Assembly (NCBI GenBank): GCA_964515185.1
Contig: CAZESP010000005.1
Coordinates: 5,787-69,786 of the forward strand
Origin: an uncultured Alcaligenaceae bacterium
Lineage (GTDB): Bacteria > Planctomycetota > Planctomycetia > Gemmatales > Gemmataceae
DNA length: 64,000 nucleotides
Direction: 5' to 3'
The translations under genes were made by a program, and so were the position numbers. Positions 5,430 through 12,152 of this stretch are shown here, piece by piece; position 1 is the first letter of the stretch; every line of letters starts with the position of its first letter. Below the pieces are notes generated by a model. That model did not search any database, was not told the DNA's origin, and worked only from the letters and a program-made list of their open reading frames with translations.

Positions 5430-5504
5430 GCGACCTCCCGTCGGTGTCGGGGTTAACTTGAAGCAGGGAGCGCCGCTCCCAACTTACTGGCGAGGAACCG
5501 TACT

Positions 5505-6611
5505 ATGCCCCATCTTATCCGATCGTCGAGCTTTTTGGCTCTCGCGGGGCTTTTCGCGTTGGCCACCGCGGTACACGCTCAGACCGGAGCGTTTGGGGCC
5601 GGCGGCGGAGGTGGCGGCGGAGGGTCGGGGTTTGGCGGAGGAGGATCGGGCTTCGGCGGCGGTGGGTCGGGAGCTACCGGCGGATCGGGTAGTGGCGGCA
5701 CGGGGTTTGCCGGTTCGCCGTTGACTGGCGACACGCCCCTGACTTCGGGCGGCAATCTCACGACTGGAAGCGGAAACAGCTCGCTCAATCAGACCAATCT
5801 CTTCCGAGGTTACTACTCCAACCCGATGTCAGCGGGCTTGGCGAGCATATCCAGTTCCGGCAATCGCGGCGGCACGAGTTCCGGCGGCGGCTTCGGACAA
5901 CCGACCTTCGGCACCAGCGCGGGAGGCACTTCCGGTGGCGGATTCGGCTTCGGCGGCGGAAGCAGCTTTGGAGGCGGAACGTCGCGAACGACGGGATTTG
6001 GCGGCACCAATACAGGAACTCGCACCGGGGGGATGACCGGCGGCGCGAGTTTCGGCGGCGGCCGGACGACCACCGGCGGCACTTTTGGCGGGGGCGGCGG
6101 CACCTTTGGCGGAGGAGGCGGCACTTTTGGCGGGGGCGGCGGCACCTTTGGCGGAGGAGGCGGCACCTTTGGCGGCGGGCGCACAGGTGGCGGTACGTTC
6201 GGTGGTGGCGGCGGCACGTTCGGCGGGGGTGGGTTTACGGGAACCGCATCGGTCACCGGAGGGCGTGGTACGGGTTTCGGCGGCGGCGGGGCGTTCGGCG
6301 GTGCCGGCGGCAGCAACAGTGGCGCTGCCGGGTCGCGAATGGCCATGGTGGCCTTGTCCGTCAAGTCGCCCGTCCCGAGGACGATCACCGCTCCTGAGCT
6401 TCAGGCCGATCTGCGCGGGATGATTGCCCAGTCGGATCGCTTGGTTTCACGCGACAAGATTCAGCTCAGTGTCAAGGGTCGCGATGTCGTCTTAACCGGC
6501 ATGGTTCGCGACGATGATGAGCGGCGACTCGTGGAGGCGATGCTGAGGCTGACGCCCGGCATTGGGCAGATTTCAAACAACCTTCAGGTCGAGCCGCCTC
6601 CCAAGCCGTGA
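5505..6611 (+). CDS. secreted glycine-rich repeat protein with C-terminal BON domain
   Basis: Signal peptide 'MPHLIRSSSFLALAGLFALATAVHAQ'. About 250 aa of GGGxFGGGG repeats. C-terminal 'LQADLRGMIAQSDRLVSRDKIQLSVKGRDVVLTGMVRDDDERRLVEAMLRLTPGIGQISNNLQV' matches the BON domain pattern. Confidence 0.7.
   Translation: MPHLIRSSSFLALAGLFALATAVHAQTGAFGAGGGGGGGGSGFGGGGSGFGGGGSGATGGSGSGGTGFAGSPLTGDTPLTSGGNLTTGSGNSSLNQTNLFRGYYSNPMSAGLASISSSGNRGGTSSGGGFGQPTFGTSAGGTSGGGFGFGGGSSFGGGTSRTTGFGGTNTGTRTGGMTGGASFGGGRTTTGGTFGGGGGTFGGGGGTFGGGGGTFGGGGGTFGGGRTGGGTFGGGGGTFGGGGFTGTASVTGGRGTGFGGGGAFGGAGGSNSGAAGSRMAMVALSVKSPVPRTITAPELQADLRGMIAQSDRLVSRDKIQLSVKGRDVVLTGMVRDDDERRLVEAMLRLTPGIGQISNNLQVEPPPKP
6070..6240. repeat. 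coding tandem repeat of a 15-nt period (GGTFG), including a perfect 45-nt tandem duplication at about 6076-6165
   Basis: 'ggcggcacttttggcgggggcggcggcacctttggcggaggaggc' occurs twice back to back. It lies within the glycine-rich protein gene. Confidence 0.8.
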
Positions 6612-6793: not shown

Positions 6794-7702
6794 ATGAAAC
6801 TTGGATTCGTCAGCGCGATATTGGGCGACTTGACACTGGAAGAAGTGCTTGCCTATGCGGGCGACGAGGGCTTTGAGTGCGTCGAGTTGATGTGTTGGCC
6901 GCCCGGGACTTCCGACCGGCGTTACGCGGGCGTTTGTCACGTCGATGTGACGCAGTTCGACGACGGTCAAGCCCATCGGGTGAAGGAATTGACGCATATC
7001 CACGGTGTTTCGATATCGGGGTTGGGCTATTATCCGAATCCGCTCGATAGCGATCCGGCTCATCGTGCGATGGTTGTCGGGCACCTTCGCAAGGTGATGG
7101 CCGCCGCCGCCAAACTTGGTGTTGGGGTTGTGAACACCTTCATCGGCCGCGACTCCACGAAGAGTGTGGATGCCAATTGGCCATTGTTCCAGCAGGTTTG
7201 GCCGCCGTTGGTTCGCGAGGCTGAGTCCCTGGGAATCAAGATCGGGCTAGAGAATTGCCCGATGCTCTTCACTGAAGACGAGTGGCCTGGCGGAAAGAAC
7301 CTTGCCACAACGCCGGCCCTCTGGCAACGCATCTTCGCCGACTTGAAAAGCTCAAGCGTCGGCTTGAATTTTGACCCCTCGCACTTGATCTGGCAACGGA
7401 TTGACCCAGCTCGTTGCATCCGCGACTTCGGCTCGCGCATTGTCCACGTCCACGCCAAGGACACCCGCATCGACGCCGACAAACTCTACGCGGTCGGCGG
7501 TCAGGGACTGGGATGGCACACCGCCAAGATTCCGGGATTGGGCGATGTCAACTGGGGGGCGTTCTTCAGTGCCCTGACAGATGCCCAATACACTGGCCCT
7601 GTTTGCATCGAGGTCGAGGACCGAGCCTTTGAAGGTTCGCTGGCCGATCGCAAGCGGTCGCTCAGGCAGAGCAAGCGATTTCTCGAGCAATACATCGTCT
7701 AG
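6794..7702 (+). CDS. sugar phosphate isomerase/epimerase (xylose isomerase-like TIM barrel)
   Basis: '[32 protein letters not shown]', '[10 protein letters not shown]' and a conserved His/Asp/Glu metal-ligand pattern. 302 aa. Confidence 0.75.
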
Positions 7703-7823
7703 TCATGGTCAATTGACGTTATGCCGATCCCTACACGGTTACTGAAAAATCGATGTTGAAGTCGGCGCGCTTCTGCGAGAATGGTCGCGACACCGAGTTG
7801 TCGGACGATACCTAGAGGTACGC

Positions 7824-8792
7824 ATGTCGTTCATTAATGATCTCATCAAATTGAAGCGAACCACGAAGAAAGCAAGCACCGCGATCAAGGGGTTTGCCTT
7901 CAACAACGCGCCGTTCAATCCGAACATTCATGTCAATGGGCATGACTATGACATCGTGAGTTATGCCAACGATTGCCTGGGGACATACACCGAGGAAAGC
8001 GGCAAGGAAGCGAAGATTACGGGCACGAAAACGATTGTGAAACCGACGGCCTATCTCCTGCCATGGAAGAGCGATCACATTTGCATTTGCACCATTGGCC
8101 AGGGACCGACCGTGTTTTTGACCTATCGCATGAATAGCTGCGCGGTGTTCATTTCCGGTGACGACCAAGGTCCAACAGTGGTTCACGCCAACACGGGCAA
8201 CATTGTCCCGACCTTGGACAAGAACAACTTGATCAATCAGTTCAGTACGATTTACAACGCCATGGCTCAGGAGTTGGTGAACCAGAACTTGATCGACGAC
8301 GACAATCTCACCATCTTTCAGCCGGGGGACTACGAAGGGTTCGGCGGCGTGTTTGGCATTTGCCGCGGCACGGCATGGAAGTTTTATGGCCATTCGCACA
8401 TCAATTCGACTCAGGCACGAACCTGGCAAATCTGGCCCGATGAAGCCGAGATTCCCAAGAGCGGTTGTTGCTATATCACGACGGCCGTTTGCAAAGGGAT
8501 GGGCCTTGCTGACGACTGCGACGAGCTTCAGACGCTGCGATGGTTCCGCGACGAAGTCATGAGCCGAACCGCTCAAGGCCGCGCTGAGGTCGCCGAGTAT
8601 TACAAGACCGCACCGGCGATCGTCGCCGCTCTCGCTGTCAACGCGGACGCCGGCAGAATCTACCGCGAGCTTTATTCACGTTTCATCCGCCCCGCAGTGA
8701 TGAGCATCAAACAAGGACGCCTGCGCGAGGCTCACGCTCAATACCGCGAAATGGTGCGCGCGTTGGCGGCATTCGTGGAGCGCGGTCACTAG
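7824..8792 (+). CDS. hypothetical protein with a conserved Cys-rich C-terminal module ('CCYITTAVCKGMGLADDCDELQTLRWFRDEVM...')
   Basis: GC is lower than in the flanking sequence. There is no signal peptide. The C-terminal 100 aa match a recurring C[FY]ITTA..C....DxCxEL..LRxFRD..L module that I recall at the C-termini of diverse bacterial proteins. The N-terminal 220 aa have no recognised family. Confidence 0.55.
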   Translation: MSFINDLIKLKRTTKKASTAIKGFAFNNAPFNPNIHVNGHDYDIVSYANDCLGTYTEESGKEAKITGTKTIVKPTAYLLPWKSDHICICTIGQGPTVFLTYRMNSCAVFISGDDQGPTVVHANTGNIVPTLDKNNLINQFSTIYNAMAQELVNQNLIDDDNLTIFQPGDYEGFGGVFGICRGTAWKFYGHSHINSTQARTWQIWPDEAEIPKSGCCYITTAVCKGMGLADDCDELQTLRWFRDEVMSRTAQGRAEVAEYYKTAPAIVAALAVNADAGRIYRELYSRFIRPAVMSIKQGRLREAHAQYREMVRALAAFVERGH

Positions 8793-8845
8793 AAAACCGT
8801 GCCATCAGCTGAGGACCGTCAAGATTCGCCTTGGATGCGCCACTT

Positions 8846-9187
8846 TCACGTCTGCGGGCGGTTGACTCGCACGATTTGGCCGCGCAAGTCAGCGCAGGCG
8901 TCGATTGCTTGATGGATGCGCGACGCCTGACCGATGAAGTCAACGTCAACCGTGCAAACAATGATCCCAGCATGTTTGGGCTGTTGGCGATGCAATCGAA
9001 TAAAATCTTTTCAATTCAGCGTCAACACGGCACGATCTTCCGAAGTTGCTAGAGCAAGGACATCAGCGTCGGAGATCGCTTCATTGGCCTTACTGCGTTC
9101 GTGAATGGTCGTGACATCATGGCCGAGTCGCCGCAGTTCTTCGACAACGGGAAAGGGAAAATTCTCGTTGGAATAGAGGCGGGCCAC
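8846..9187 (-). pseudogene. DUF5615 (Mut7-C/PIN-like) toxin-antitoxin-partner gene interrupted by an in-frame TGA at about 9011-9013
   Basis: Hand translation from a GTG that overlaps the DUF433 stop gives 'MARLYSNENFPFPVVEELRRLGHDVTTIHERSKANEAISDADVLALATSEDRAVLTLN*KDFIRLHRQQPKHAGIIVCTVDVDF...'. Both halves match DUF5615 in one frame. No ORF of 60 aa or more is reported here, consistent with disruption. Confidence 0.55.
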
Positions 9188-9189
9188 AT

Positions 9190-9558
9190 CTACTCCTTTT
9201 CGTTCTCCATGATCGCTTTTTCGATCTCTTCATGATGGTCACGGGCATAGGCCCAAGCCTCAACGAGATCGATCGCGAGTAACGTCGGGAAACTGCGAAG
9301 AATGTCGATCTCCGACGCGCCCTGCTGCCGCATCCGCTCGAGAACCCACACCGGGATCCGCGTTCGAACCAACCTGGCCTCCCCACCGCAAACGCCAGGG
9401 GTGGTGACAATCGAGGGGTAGCCCGATCTTGCGCGCGAATCCGGCGAGATAGGTGCCGCTAGGACAGAACGCCAAATACCAACGGATGCGAAAAACCACG
9501 GTCTTTCGGCTTCAGACCCGACGACAAACTCGTGGAACGGACTTGCCGGATGTTCCAT
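9190..9558 (-). CDS. DUF433 domain protein (antitoxin-like partner of DUF5615)
   Basis: 'PSIVTTPGVCGGEARLVRTRIPVWVLERMRQQGASEIDILRSFPTLLAIDLVEAWAYA' fits the DUF433 consensus (CGG...R.TRIPV...L..G.S.EEIL..YP.L...D..AAL.YA). The exact start is uncertain and the ORF extends upstream to 9618. Confidence 0.65.
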   Translation of the reverse strand: MEHPASPFHEFVVGSEAERPWFFASVGIWRSVLAAPISPDSRARSGYPSIVTTPGVCGGEARLVRTRIPVWVLERMRQQGASEIDILRSFPTLLAIDLVEAWAYARDHHEEIEKAIMENEKE

Positions 9559-9797
9559 ATCACGTTCACCTCGCGCCCTGCCAACGATACTCTCCGATGG
9601 CTGGGAGAGTCGGCTCATTTTGCCGATCCGCCAACACTGGAGCTACCTATGACGGCACAGTACATTCTAACCAAAAATGGTTGTGAATTGCATTCGAGCC
9701 GCCGACAATGTTGGAGAGATCGCGTTTTCTCTGATTGGGTGAGCCATGTACTCGATGGCTCAGCCTTTTTCATGACTTGAGTCGGGAGAGACGAAGA

Positions 9798-10676
9798 ATG
9801 GCGATGTCGACGACAGATGTCAGCGATTTAGTGCTTGCCGCCTTGGAAACGGCGATCCGCCAAGGTGGCGAACATCGCCTGGTGACAAGCGGCAAGAAGA
9901 AAGGGCTGTTGCCGAGAGGTGCCCGATCGGCGGCGAACAAACTCGCCCAGGACCAATGTACCGATCCCAACTTGGCGTTGTTCACGGTTCGACAGGTCGT
10001 CGAGGGGAAAAGCAAAACCGCAAAACCCGTCGCGTTTGTTACAATCACGTCGCGCGGAATTGATGTTCTATTCGAGCGAAAGACGTCGACCGAACATCGC
10101 GAGTTGTTGGATCGGACAGCCGACGCCCACAAGGAGGCCGCCCAGGAAGCTGTACGACGACTGAGCGCAATCGAACTGAAACGGATCGACGAACAACGAC
10201 GGACACTCGACAGCCAGGCAAACGAACTGCAAGAGTTCATCGTAGATTTTGTCAAGCAACGTCTCGCGGAGCTGGAACGCCAACGACGTGAACTTGATGA
10301 ACAAGCAAAGCGCTTGACGCGATCAACGGCCGAGCCGCCGAAGCCTTCGACGGAACGACCGGGGCGTGTTCCAGTGCCAACGACCGACGAGGATCTCGAT
10401 TATCGGCGCGATGTGTGCCGCGAGCTTGTATTTGCATGGCAGGATAATCCCGCACCGGGAACCCGCGCCGCACTTGAGGTCGTCATGCTTAACGCCGGTT
10501 TGGATCAAGTTGGGCAACCTGGCAGTCAGGTGGTCTACACCGGGATTGAACACGAAACGACAGATGCTGTTGATGACGGTGATTTGGTAACAGTCGTGGA
10601 ACCCGGATGGAAACTTCGGTCGCCACGCGGCACATTACTCATTTCCCGAGCGAAAGTAGTTTCTGCCAAACCATGA
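9798..10676 (+). CDS. hypothetical protein with central coiled coil, 293 aa
   Basis: Start chosen at 'MAMSTTDV' with an upstream GGAGAG. Central 'ELKRIDEQRRTLDSQANELQEFIVDFVKQRLAELERQRRELDEQAKRL' is predicted coiled coil. It ends 10 nt before the next gene. Confidence 0.55.
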   Translation: MAMSTTDVSDLVLAALETAIRQGGEHRLVTSGKKKGLLPRGARSAANKLAQDQCTDPNLALFTVRQVVEGKSKTAKPVAFVTITSRGIDVLFERKTSTEHRELLDRTADAHKEAAQEAVRRLSAIELKRIDEQRRTLDSQANELQEFIVDFVKQRLAELERQRRELDEQAKRLTRSTAEPPKPSTERPGRVPVPTTDEDLDYRRDVCRELVFAWQDNPAPGTRAALEVVMLNAGLDQVGQPGSQVVYTGIEHETTDAVDDGDLVTVVEPGWKLRSPRGTLLISRAKVVSAKP

Positions 10677-10685
10677 GGATCAAAC

Positions 10686-12152
10686 ATGCGCCCAATGCTG
10701 TGTATCGATTTTGGCAATACATACACCAAAGTCGCGCTGCGCAAGACGGTTAACGATCGAAGCGAACTGTTAAAAGATGATTCTTTGGTATGGGACGAGT
10801 TCAATTTCTGTGTTCCCACTGTCGCAGCGAGATTCACAGAAAAAAGTAAGACTGTTTGGCGTTTCGGCGAGGAAATCCATCGTCTGAAAGGTAATGAACG
10901 CGATCTTAAAGTCTTCCGCAATTGGAAGCCGTTCTTTTTCGACGGCGACCATGCCAGCCTAGTCAATCAGGCTCTACCAGTCCTATCAGGGCAAGCCTCT
11001 GGCGCTGAAGAACCTCCTCCAGGCATCACACAAGTTGCGTGGAATGTAATGAAGAGTACGCTGCCAAAGGCAGATCTCGAGAAAATCGAGCAAAAGCTCA
11101 GGGGAAACGAACTGTCCGAGGGCCCGGCGGCAGGCATTCCCGATACGACCGATATGGATTACAAGGAATTAGCTCTTGGTTTCTTTCGTTGGTTGCACCA
11201 GTTCTTCGATCCAATTTGTCGTAAGCGCTTCAATCAATGTGTCCGCGACATACCGGTCAGGATTTCTCTGCCAAGTTTCGGATCCGTCGCGGGCGCCGAA
11301 TCACTCCTTGACGAACTCCTAAGTGAAACAGGTTGGAAACCAGATGAGACGATGCCAGTGATCGCAGAACCGCGGGCCAACGCAATCGGGATTTTCACGG
11401 AAGGCCAGAATCGAGTTAACAAGAAAGGGACTTCGCCTCTGTATCCCCCCATGTTTGGACAAACCGGCTTGTATGACAGAATGCGCAACGCTGTAGTGGC
11501 CAATGGTCCGCCGACCGCATGGGCACTTGTCGCGGACATTGGTGGCTATTCGACCGATTTCGCAATGATTGGCTTTGATTTGACCGAACTTGACGCTTCA
11601 CTTGACGGAGTGATAGATGGCCGCCCGCGGCTCGCTCATAATTCTTGGCCGCTTGGGATCACCGATCTTGATAGGATGGTCGGCGAACGGCTACGGGAAG
11701 AAAAGCGTCTTCGCCTCAATCGAATTATTGAAGACCATAATCAGCAGCGACTCGAAACGTTTCACAGTCGTCTTTATGGCGGCGAAGGGCGATTTGCCAC
11801 AAGAGAAGCGATTTTTGGTGATTCGGAACGCGAAAGAGCTGATATCGACATTGCGATACAAGACTTTGGAAAAACGGTTGCAGACCATGCCACACAATTC
11901 CTTGAGATCCATCAGTACGACCGAATCGACGACCTTATATTAACTGGTGGCGGAATGATGATTCCGGCTGTCCGCGAGGCTATTTGCCATCGATTGAAGT
12001 TGTTCGGAGTACGATTTGTGCATCTGTACAATCCCGCCGGAGCGAAATCCATTTCTTCAATTCGAACGCATGGCGTCGATCCGAAATTAACTCGGGGCGC
12101 CACAGCCATCGGTGGGGCAAGTGTCTTTTTCGACTTCGCCGAATCAACTTGA
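10686..12152 (+). CDS. actin/Hsp70-fold (ASKHA superfamily) ATPase of unknown function
   Basis: N-terminal 'LCIDFGNTYTKVAL' is a phosphate-1 motif. 'LVADIGGYSTDFAMIG' is phosphate-2-like. 'LILTGGGMMIPAVREAI' is an adenosine-motif-like segment. GC is visibly lower than in neighbouring genes. Confidence 0.6.
   Translation: MRPMLCIDFGNTYTKVALRKTVNDRSELLKDDSLVWDEFNFCVPTVAARFTEKSKTVWRFGEEIHRLKGNERDLKVFRNWKPFFFDGDHASLVNQALPVLSGQASGAEEPPPGITQVAWNVMKSTLPKADLEKIEQKLRGNELSEGPAAGIPDTTDMDYKELALGFFRWLHQFFDPICRKRFNQCVRDIPVRISLPSFGSVAGAESLLDELLSETGWKPDETMPVIAEPRANAIGIFTEGQNRVNKKGTSPLYPPMFGQTGLYDRMRNAVVANGPPTAWALVADIGGYSTDFAMIGFDLTELDASLDGVIDGRPRLAHNSWPLGITDLDRMVGERLREEKRLRLNRIIEDHNQQRLETFHSRLYGGEGRFATREAIFGDSERERADIDIAIQDFGKTVADHATQFLEIHQYDRIDDLILTGGGMMIPAVREAICHRLKLFGVRFVHLYNPAGAKSISSIRTHGVDPKLTRGATAIGGASVFFDFAEST

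What the first reader, a model, noticed from the sequence alone, without database searches (positions are those of the whole stretch)
8846..9558. DUF433/DUF5615 toxin-antitoxin-like pair with the DUF5615 gene broken by an in-frame TGA
The DUF433 gene ends with TAG overlapping a GTG. From that GTG a single frame reads a complete DUF5615 (PIN/Mut7-C-like) protein except for TGA at about 9011-9013 ('...AVLTLN*KDFIRLHRQ...'). Either the putative nuclease partner has been inactivated, leaving an orphan DUF433, or this is a sequencing error, or the stop is read through. The pair lies in a compositionally atypical stretch.
Basis: seen in the sequence. Interest (0 to 1): 0.55.

Follow-up and report, generated by a model that had tools for sequence, protein, structure and literature searches.

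The report
Toxin gene killed by one stop codon
A two-gene toxin-antitoxin cassette (DUF433 antitoxin, DUF5615 putative nuclease toxin) has a real stop codon in the middle of the toxin gene, replacing an always-conserved arginine, so it is most likely a recently disabled toxin with a leftover antitoxin, which is an ordinary event.

Summary
On the minus strand, a 122-codon DUF433 gene (9558-9190) is followed two bases later by a GTG-started DUF5615 frame of exactly the family length (113 codons, 9187-8846). That frame is interrupted only by TGA at 9013-9011 (codon 59). Each half passes Pfam's DUF5615 threshold on its own. Codon 59 is Arg wherever it could be read: all 28 aligned homologues and 27 related loci. 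A single CGA/AGA-to-TGA change therefore explains it.

The stop is not an assembly artefact. A Logan assembly and two JGI metagenome contigs carry the same TGA, and the JGI contigs differ from the window by 1-2 SNPs elsewhere. TGA is an ordinary stop in this window. No hairpin follows it, and homologues have Arg there, not Cys, so selenocysteine or a variant genetic code is not supported.

The part after the stop shows no decay, so the mutation is recent or the tail is still constrained. The DUF433 gene looks intact. An AlphaFold model of a 76%-identical homologue puts the stop just after strand 3, so the product loses helix 3, strand 4, helix 4 and strand 5, along with invariant D81.

Best reading: a recently pseudogenised toxin of a known, predicted toxin-antitoxin family. 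Low interest. Leaky UGA readthrough cannot be excluded computationally.

The parts
9190..9558 (-). DUF433 (COG2442) antitoxin-like gene. It is 122 codons from ATG 9558 and ends with TAG at 9192-9190. It appears intact.
   Evidence: Pfam PF04255 scores 55.8 bits over residues 70-125 of the 142-aa ORF. The match to PDB 2GA1 has E 4e-17. It aligns end to end with the partner proteins of 27 related loci. The conserved 'E-K/R' at residues 18-19 fixes the start at MEHPAS. Gene callers in Logan and JGI also give 122 aa.
9193..9198 (-). AAGGAG Shine-Dalgarno-like hexamer inside the last codons of DUF433, 5 nt upstream of the toxin's GTG. This suggests translational coupling.
   Evidence: The junction sequence is GAAAAGGAGTAGATGTGGCC. 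The closest intact pairs have GAGGAGTAGTCGTG or GAGGATTAGCGGTG with the same 2-nt gap. Function is inferred, not shown.
9014..9187 (-). DUF5615 toxin-like gene, codons 1-58 (GTG start). This is the only part expected to be translated efficiently.
   Evidence: Translation is. Pfam PF18480 scores 48.5 bits over profile positions 2-55. In the homologue model this part corresponds to strand 1, helix 1, strand 2, helix 2 and strand 3.
9011..9013 (-). In-frame TGA at codon 59, in place of the family-invariant Arg. The next base is A (UGA-A).
   Evidence: Searches show the codon. Arg is present in 28 of 28 homologues and is invariant in 36 of 36. Homologous codons in 27 loci are CGC, CGG, CGT, CGA, AGA or AGG. 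The identical TGA is in L001, L032 and L033.
8846..9010 (-). DUF5615 codons 60-113 plus the TAG stop (8848-8846). This is an undecayed remnant downstream of the nonsense codon.
   Evidence: Pfam PF18480 scores 24.9 bits over profile positions 56-109. All invariant residues are kept: H66, H72, G74, I75, C78, T79, D81, L101, N109, R110. Mean identity to homologues is 0.667, against 0.654 among intact members.

Best explanation
This is a chromosomal two-gene cassette of the COG2442/DUF433 - COG4634/DUF5615 type, which is a predicted VapBC-like type II toxin-antitoxin family. In intact cassettes the two genes are presumably co-transcribed and translationally coupled: an AAGGAG lies in the last antitoxin codons, followed by a 2-nt gap and then a GTG or ATG. 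By analogy with the studied relative, the DUF433 protein would bind and neutralise the small alpha/beta DUF5615 protein, which is a putative Mut7-C/PIN-like nuclease.

In this genome a single base change turned the invariant Arg59 codon (CGA or AGA) into TGA. Translation should therefore end after 58 residues. The product lacks helix 3, strand 4, helix 4 and strand 5, and with them Arg59 and the invariant Asp81 and near-invariant Asp83, so the toxin is almost certainly inactive. The antitoxin gene is left as an intact orphan.

The mutation is evolutionarily recent, because nothing downstream has decayed. It is the consensus allele of the population sampled in at least three sequencing data sets.

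What is shown: the anatomy, the family membership, Arg as the ancestral residue, the reproducibility of the stop, and the lack of decay. What is inferred: the toxin-antitoxin mechanism, nuclease activity, loss of function, and translational coupling.
For: - Frame and stop are as described.
- Pfam gives a full-length DUF5615 match split by the stop, and a DUF433 match.
- There are 3523 homologues. The best 120 are 111-135 aa long, most of them 113 aa like the fused frame.
- Arg59 is invariant, and the homologous codons are all Arg codons.
- The architecture is conserved: a 109-158 codon stop-to-stop DUF433 ORF, a junction of about -1 to +8 nt (mostly 2-3 nt), then the DUF5615 gene. This holds in 29 of 32 loci from Planctomycetota, Chloroflexota, cyanobacteria and others.
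- TGA ends 18 of 41 long ORFs in the window.
- There is no stable structure after the stop: z = +0.54.
- The same TGA is in Logan SRR12686701 (100% identity over 13 kb) and in JGI 3300043177 and 3300043267 (99.96-99.99% identity, SNPs elsewhere).
- The C half is not more diverged than in intact members.
- The AlphaFold2 model of the 76%-identical P0001 (pLDDT 88.8) places residue 59 at the start of helix 3, just after strand 3.
- Literature: the PIN-COG2442 pair was predicted as a toxin-antitoxin system (PMC2701414). vapBC10 of Synechocystis was shown to be toxic and to be neutralised by its antitoxin (PMC3834315). COG4634 is placed in the Mut7-C group of PIN-like domains (PMC5499597). Stand-alone DUF433 genes are known (PMC4963859).
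Against: - The complete lack of decay after the stop would also fit continued selection on the tail, for example through readthrough.
- UGA followed by A is, from my own recollection of E. coli work (Engelberg-Kulka 1981), a comparatively leaky context.
- All four assemblies come from essentially one strain (at least 99.96% identity) and possibly one study, so they show reproducibility but not independent evolution.
- No read-level data were available.
- Toxicity and nuclease activity of this particular subfamily have never been tested. The fold searches returned generic flavodoxin-like folds rather than PIN domains.
Confidence: 0.8

Rival explanations
1. Leaky termination. The UGA is read through at low frequency by a near-cognate tRNA, most likely inserting Trp. 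This would give a small amount of full-length R59W protein, so the locus would remain a weak or attenuated toxin-antitoxin system rather than a dead one.
For: The tail is perfectly preserved in frame and length. The +4 base is A, and UGA is the leakiest stop in bacteria (own knowledge). Toxins can act at low dose.
Against: Arg59 is invariant in 36 of 36 homologues, so a Trp substitution would probably be damaging. No stimulatory structure follows the stop. Among the 120 listed homologues (111-135 aa) and 32 loci, none has a stop here. A recent mutation explains the preserved tail equally well.
Confidence: 0.1
2. Sequencing or assembly error. The true codon is CGA (Arg) and the toxin is intact.
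For: A single base separates TGA from an Arg codon, and nothing else in the gene is damaged.
Against: The identical base appears in the window, in an independent Logan assembly and in two JGI metagenome assemblies (a third JGI contig was not read). Those JGI contigs carry their own SNPs elsewhere, at 6167, 6173 and 8343. The site is not in a homopolymer longer than 4 (AATTGAAAAG).
Confidence: 0.04
3. Programmed recoding. The TGA encodes selenocysteine, or the organism uses a code in which TGA is a sense codon.
For: Only the in-frame TGA itself.
Against: Homologues have Arg, never Cys or Sec, at this position. There is no SECIS-like hairpin after the codon. There is no tRNA-Sec or any other tRNA in the window and no Rfam hit. 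TGA terminates 18 of 41 long ORFs, including Pfam-supported genes.
Confidence: 0.01
4. The 58-residue N-terminal fragment, alone or with a separately initiated C-terminal fragment from TTG 8995, has a function of its own. It might titrate the antitoxin or act as a split protein.
For: The fragment keeps the start, the SD-like site and three of the five strands. A 49-codon ORF starts at TTG 8995.
Against: The TTG is simply the conserved Leu65 codon and has no SD-like sequence upstream. No family members of this short form were seen other than this one strain. A fragment with three of five strands of a single alpha/beta domain is unlikely to fold.
Confidence: 0.05

Closest known systems
PIN-COG2442 (DUF433) VapBC-type toxin-antitoxin pairs, e.g. 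vapBC10 (ssr2962/slr1767) of Synechocystis sp. PCC 6803 (PMC3834315; predicted as a class in PMC2701414)
   Same: The DUF433 gene is upstream of a small PIN-like-superfamily gene in a tight bicistron, and the antitoxin carries the same DUF433 domain. In vapBC10 the downstream protein arrests E. coli growth and the DUF433 protein neutralises it by forming a complex.
   Different: Here the toxin ORF is cut by a nonsense codon. The DUF433 protein here has a ~50-aa N-terminal extension that is shared with its own subfamily.
[quoted passage not shown]
   Same: There is a full-length HMM match (82 bits). The close homologues listed are mostly 113 aa, and JGI gives several of them the COG4634 name.
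   Different: The family is uncharacterised experimentally. This copy is interrupted at codon 59. The AlphaFold model of a close homologue finds only generic flavodoxin-like neighbours in the PDB, with no PIN domain among the top hits.
Stand-alone (orphan) DUF433 antitoxin genes, e.g. ssr2784a and ssl5025 in Synechocystis (PMC4963859, table)
   Same: The end state is the same: a DUF433 gene without a working toxin partner.
   Different: Here the dead toxin is still fully recognisable next to it, so the locus shows the first step of orphaning rather than its outcome.
DUF433-PIN_10 pair VapBC45 (Rv2018/Rv2019) of Mycobacterium tuberculosis (mentioned in PMC5499597 and PMC2701414)
   Same: A DUF433-containing antitoxin is paired with a Mut7-C-group PIN-like toxin.
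   Different: It has a different toxin cluster (PIN_10, not COG4634), and its antitoxin is fused to an extra winged-helix domain. It was not compared by sequence here.

Membership tests
Pfam PF18480 DUF5615 (COG4634) | HMM score above the gathering threshold over the whole domain | tested here: met
   The fused frame scores 82.2 bits against a cut-off of 23.8, covering profile positions 2-109 of 110. The halves score 48.5 and 24.9 bits.
Pfam PF18480 DUF5615 (COG4634) | Uninterrupted ORF of about 111-113 codons | tested here: not met
   TGA at codon 59. The 120 listed homologues are uninterrupted ORFs of 111-135 aa, mostly 113.
Pfam PF04255 DUF433 (COG2442) | HMM score above the gathering threshold, and similarity to the solved DUF433 structure | tested here: met
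   55.8 bits against a cut-off of 23.6, covering profile positions 1-56 of 56. PDB 2GA1 matches with E 4e-17.
Type II toxin-antitoxin system (PIN-COG2442 / VapBC-like) | Antitoxin-toxin bicistron with a tight junction, conserved as a pair across unrelated taxa | tested here: met
   There is a 2-nt gap with AAGGAG upstream. The same pairing is found in 29 of 32 related loci from several phyla.
Type II toxin-antitoxin system (PIN-COG2442 / VapBC-like) | Toxin inhibits growth, and the antitoxin neutralises it by direct binding | not testable with these tools
   This has been shown only for vapBC10 of Synechocystis (PMC3834315). No experiment exists for this subfamily.
PIN domain-like nuclease fold | PIN-like three-layer alpha/beta fold with clustered acidic residues at the strand ends | tested here: inconclusive
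   [not shown]
Selenoprotein gene | Cys or Sec at the homologous position in relatives, and a SECIS hairpin just 3' of the UGA | tested here: not met
   Relatives have invariant Arg. The fold of the 111 nt around the stop has z = +0.54. There is no Rfam hit and no tRNA.
Alternative genetic code with TGA as a sense codon | TGA absent or rare as a terminator of long conserved ORFs | tested here: not met
   TGA ends 18 of 41 stop-to-stop ORFs of at least 250 codons.

The most novel reading that the evidence does not exclude
The UGA-A at codon 59 is kept as a leaky 'dimmer'. It would let through a trickle of full-length toxin carrying Trp at the invariant Arg position, so the cassette would still work as an attenuated toxin-antitoxin or abortive-infection module. 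The perfectly preserved tail would then reflect selection rather than youth.
Probability: 0.04. Interest if true: 0.5.

Novelty: new member of a known kind. Interest (0 to 1): 0.12.

Why it matters
It matters little beyond annotation. The locus should be annotated as a DUF433 gene plus a DUF5615 pseudogene with an internal stop. It should not be annotated as two small genes, nor as a 'Trk K+ transport NAD-binding subunit', which is the name JGI gave the 58-aa fragment.

It is a clean snapshot of the first step in toxin loss: one transition-type hit on an Arg codon, with the antitoxin still intact. That illustrates how orphan DUF433 antitoxins arise.

It also offers a natural negative control. 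Restoring TGA to CGA would give a matched active/inactive pair for the first functional test of the uncharacterised DUF5615 subfamily.

Tried and rejected
- **Source genome or a near relative with an intact allele.** The genome-contig scan found only relatives of 71% identity or less. The metagenome contigs DNA scan, with N at the mutated base, found nothing. The 90% clusters of both proteins contain only this strain. No orthologous intact copy could therefore be compared.
- **Second DUF433/DUF5615 pair in the window.** None found.
- **Selenocysteine or recoding.** Rejected: no hairpin, no tRNA, no Rfam hit, and Arg in homologues.
- **Variant genetic code.** Rejected.
- **Damage to the antitoxin.** Its unusual N-terminal 50 residues looked suspicious. 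However, they align in register with the homologues' N-terminal helix (E-K/R at residues 18-19), and no better frame exists upstream. I treat it as intact.
- **Promoter and terminator scan of 8600-9900.** No sigma-70-like site. The only terminator-like hairpin is on the opposite strand.
- **Defence-system context.** PADLOC gave nothing significant for the pair or its neighbours. No flanking repeats mark an island.
- **Solved DUF5615 structure by sequence.** None. There was only a weak KtrA similarity.
- **Literature search for 'DUF5615'.** 0 papers.

Full report
**1. What is in the sequence**

The feature lies on the minus strand. An ORF at 9618-9190 carries a DUF433 domain. The start that fits homologues and two independent gene callers is ATG 9558, giving 122 aa (MEHPAS...), with stop TAG at 9192-9190. 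The junction reads GAA AAG GAG TAG AT GTG. An AAGGAG hexamer (9198-9193) therefore sits 5 nt before a GTG at 9187-9185.

From that GTG one frame reads 58 codons, then TGA at 9013-9011, then 54 codons to TAG at 8848-8846. The total is 113 codons. The only slip is that TAG and GTG are separated by two bases and do not overlap.

**2. Is it more than chance?**

Yes.
- The fused frame matches Pfam DUF5615 (PF18480) at 82.2 bits over profile positions 2-109 of 110.
- Each half passes the 23.8-bit cut-off alone, at 48.5 and 24.9 bits.
- The upstream gene matches DUF433 at 55.8 bits and the solved DUF433 protein 2GA1 at E 4e-17.
- A search of 5.8 billion proteins gave 3523 homologues. The best is 76% identical. 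The 120 listed are 111-135 aa long, and most are 113 aa like the fused frame.

**3. What the stop replaces**

In an alignment with 28 homologues, position 59 is Arg in every one. All invariant positions on both sides of the stop are retained in the window sequence. In a second alignment of 36 homologues, R59 is again invariant.

In the 27 related DNA loci where the motif could be located, the codon is CGC, CGG, CGT, CGA, AGA or AGG. One substitution (CGA to TGA, or AGA to TGA) is enough to explain the stop.

**4. Artefact or real?**

- The 58-aa product is on record from a Logan assembly of SRR12686701. That contig is 100% identical to the window over 13,051 bases.
- It is also on record from three JGI/IMG contigs. 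I read two of them, from samples 3300043177 and 3300043267. They are 99.986% and 99.961% identical to the window. Their differences are at 6167, 6173 and 8343, not in the pair, and both carry the TGA.

The stop is thus reproduced by different assemblers on at least three data sets from one population. An assembly or random read error is very unlikely. Read-level counts could not be obtained.

**5. Recoding?**

- TGA terminates 18 of the 41 long ORFs in the window.
- The 111 nt around the stop fold no better than shuffles, with z = +0.54.
- ARAGORN finds no tRNA, and Rfam finds nothing in the 64 kb.
- Homologues have Arg, not Cys.

Selenocysteine and a TGA-sense code are therefore rejected.

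Ordinary low-level UGA readthrough cannot be excluded. The next base is A, which I recall as a leaky context in E. coli (own knowledge). It would insert a non-Arg residue at an invariant position.

**6. Age of the lesion**

The C-terminal 54 codons have no indel and no second stop.
- Their mean identity to homologues is 0.667. The mean among intact homologues is 0.654.
- The N-minus-C identity difference is 0.052, inside the range of individual intact members, which runs from -0.002 to 0.109.
- Both halves are 74% identical to the nearest relative, L034.

So the mutation is recent, or the tail is still constrained. The data cannot separate these two, but recency is the simpler explanation.

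**7. The partner and the architecture**

In 29 of 32 related loci (Planctomycetota, Chloroflexota, Acidobacteriota-like, cyanobacteria and others), the DUF5615 gene is preceded by a stop-to-stop DUF433 ORF of 109-158 codons. That count excludes two loci with no upstream ORF detected and L014, where the upstream ORF is 824 codons. One further ORF, in L021, is cut to 67 codons by the contig end. The junction runs from a 1-nt overlap to an 8-nt gap and is mostly 2-3 nt. The closest relatives show the same '...NEEE/D-stop-2 nt-GTG' junction.

The window's DUF433 protein aligns over its whole length. This includes the N-terminal helix motif, with E-K/R at residues 18-19 as in the homologues. It has a ~17-residue insertion before the domain. 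No alternative upstream frame fits better. I therefore consider the antitoxin gene intact.

One related locus, L025 (an Ardenticatenaceae MAG), has a frameshift near codon 17 of its DUF5615 gene. Toxin breakage therefore recurs in this family, with the caveat that MAG assemblies contain errors.

**8. Consequence for the protein**

An AlphaFold2 model of the 76%-identical homologue P0001 (36-sequence alignment, mean pLDDT 88.8, pTM 0.81) shows these elements: strand 3-6, helix 12-20, strand 24-27, helix 40-49, strand 53-56, helix 59-68, strand 75-78, helix 84-97, strand 105-108.

The stop falls at the first residue of helix 3. The 58-residue product lacks two of the five strands and two of the four helices. 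It also lacks Arg59 and the conserved H66, H72, C78, T79, D81 and D83. Loss of function is inferred from this, not measured.

**9. Mechanism and comparison with known systems**

- Makarova et al. predicted PIN-COG2442 (DUF433) pairs as a new type II toxin-antitoxin class, with 2GA1 as the antitoxin fold (PMC2701414).
- Ning et al. showed for vapBC10 of Synechocystis that the PIN-like protein arrests E. coli growth. They also showed that the DUF433 protein neutralises it in a complex, binds its own promoter, and is degraded by ClpXP (PMC3834315).
- Matelska et al. place COG4634 in the Mut7-C group of PIN-like domains as 'potential toxins' with no solved structure (PMC5499597).
- JGI's name for several homologues here, 'predicted nuclease of predicted toxin-antitoxin system', is to my knowledge the COG4634 name.

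The cassette is thus a member of a known but poorly characterised family. How it works is inferred by analogy.

Stand-alone DUF433 genes are already recorded in Synechocystis (PMC4963859). That is the end state this locus is heading towards.

**10. Context**

The pair sits in the lowest-GC 4.4-kb segment of the window: 7701-12100 has GC 0.537, against a mean of 0.596 with sd 0.017. Its neighbours there are:
- a CFI-box-CTERM domain protein at 7824-8792;
- a coiled-coil protein at 9798-10676;
- a 488-aa protein at 10686-12152 with GC3 0.50 and only faint actin-like ATPase hits.

There are no PADLOC hits, no flanking repeats, no tRNA and no integrase. Horizontal acquisition of this segment is plausible but not demonstrated.

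**11. Verdict**

It is a new, broken member of a known kind and is of low general interest. The residual novel reading, a functional leaky stop, has a probability of about 4%.

Noticed in passing
window 7701-12152: This is the lowest-GC 4.4-kb stretch of the window (0.537 against 0.596). It holds genes of unknown function around the pair: a 322-aa CFI-box-CTERM domain protein (7824-8792, NCBIfam NF041770, 54.9 bits), a 292/313-aa coiled-coil protein (9798 or 9735 to 10676), and an adjacent 488-aa protein (10686-12152, GC3 0.50) with only faint PilM/MreB-like actin-fold hits. It may be a horizontally acquired segment. The 292+488-aa gene pair may be a system of its own.
   Followed up: partly
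window 9011-9187 (L032 10001-10177): JGI/IMG names the 58-aa toxin fragment 'Trk K+ transport system NAD-binding subunit'. The family profile has a weak, sub-threshold similarity to KtrA (5but_A, two stretches of about 12 bits each). That probably explains the misannotation.
   Followed up: yes
window 8831-9052 (+): JGI's gene caller places a 73-aa gene on the opposite strand, across the stop site (L032 10136-10357, L033 1750-1971). It has no Pfam hit and lies antisense to the conserved DUF5615 tail. It is most likely a shadow ORF called because the real frame is broken.
   Followed up: partly
L025 5132-5480: The DUF5615 homologue in an Ardenticatenaceae MAG is frameshifted near codon 17. 'MADFYSNENFPFPVVE' is in one frame and 'VVEYLRQLGHDVL...RVNRPQT' is in another. 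This is a second broken toxin in the family, unless it is a MAG assembly error. L019, L023 and L029 also have aberrant C-termini.
   Followed up: partly
window 6001-6500: The Logan contig starts at window 6137. The JGI contig L032 has its only two SNPs at 6167 and 6173. The 500-nt block has the highest GC (0.698) and GC skew (0.19) in the first 20 kb. It may be a repeat or a hypervariable spot inside the ORF at 5457-6611.
   Followed up: no
[not shown]
   Followed up: partly
window 1-64000: There are no tRNA genes and no Rfam family at gathering threshold anywhere in the 64 kb. The best homologues of the pair are from Planctomycetota MAGs. The source genome is not among the GTDB species representatives searched.
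   Followed up: no
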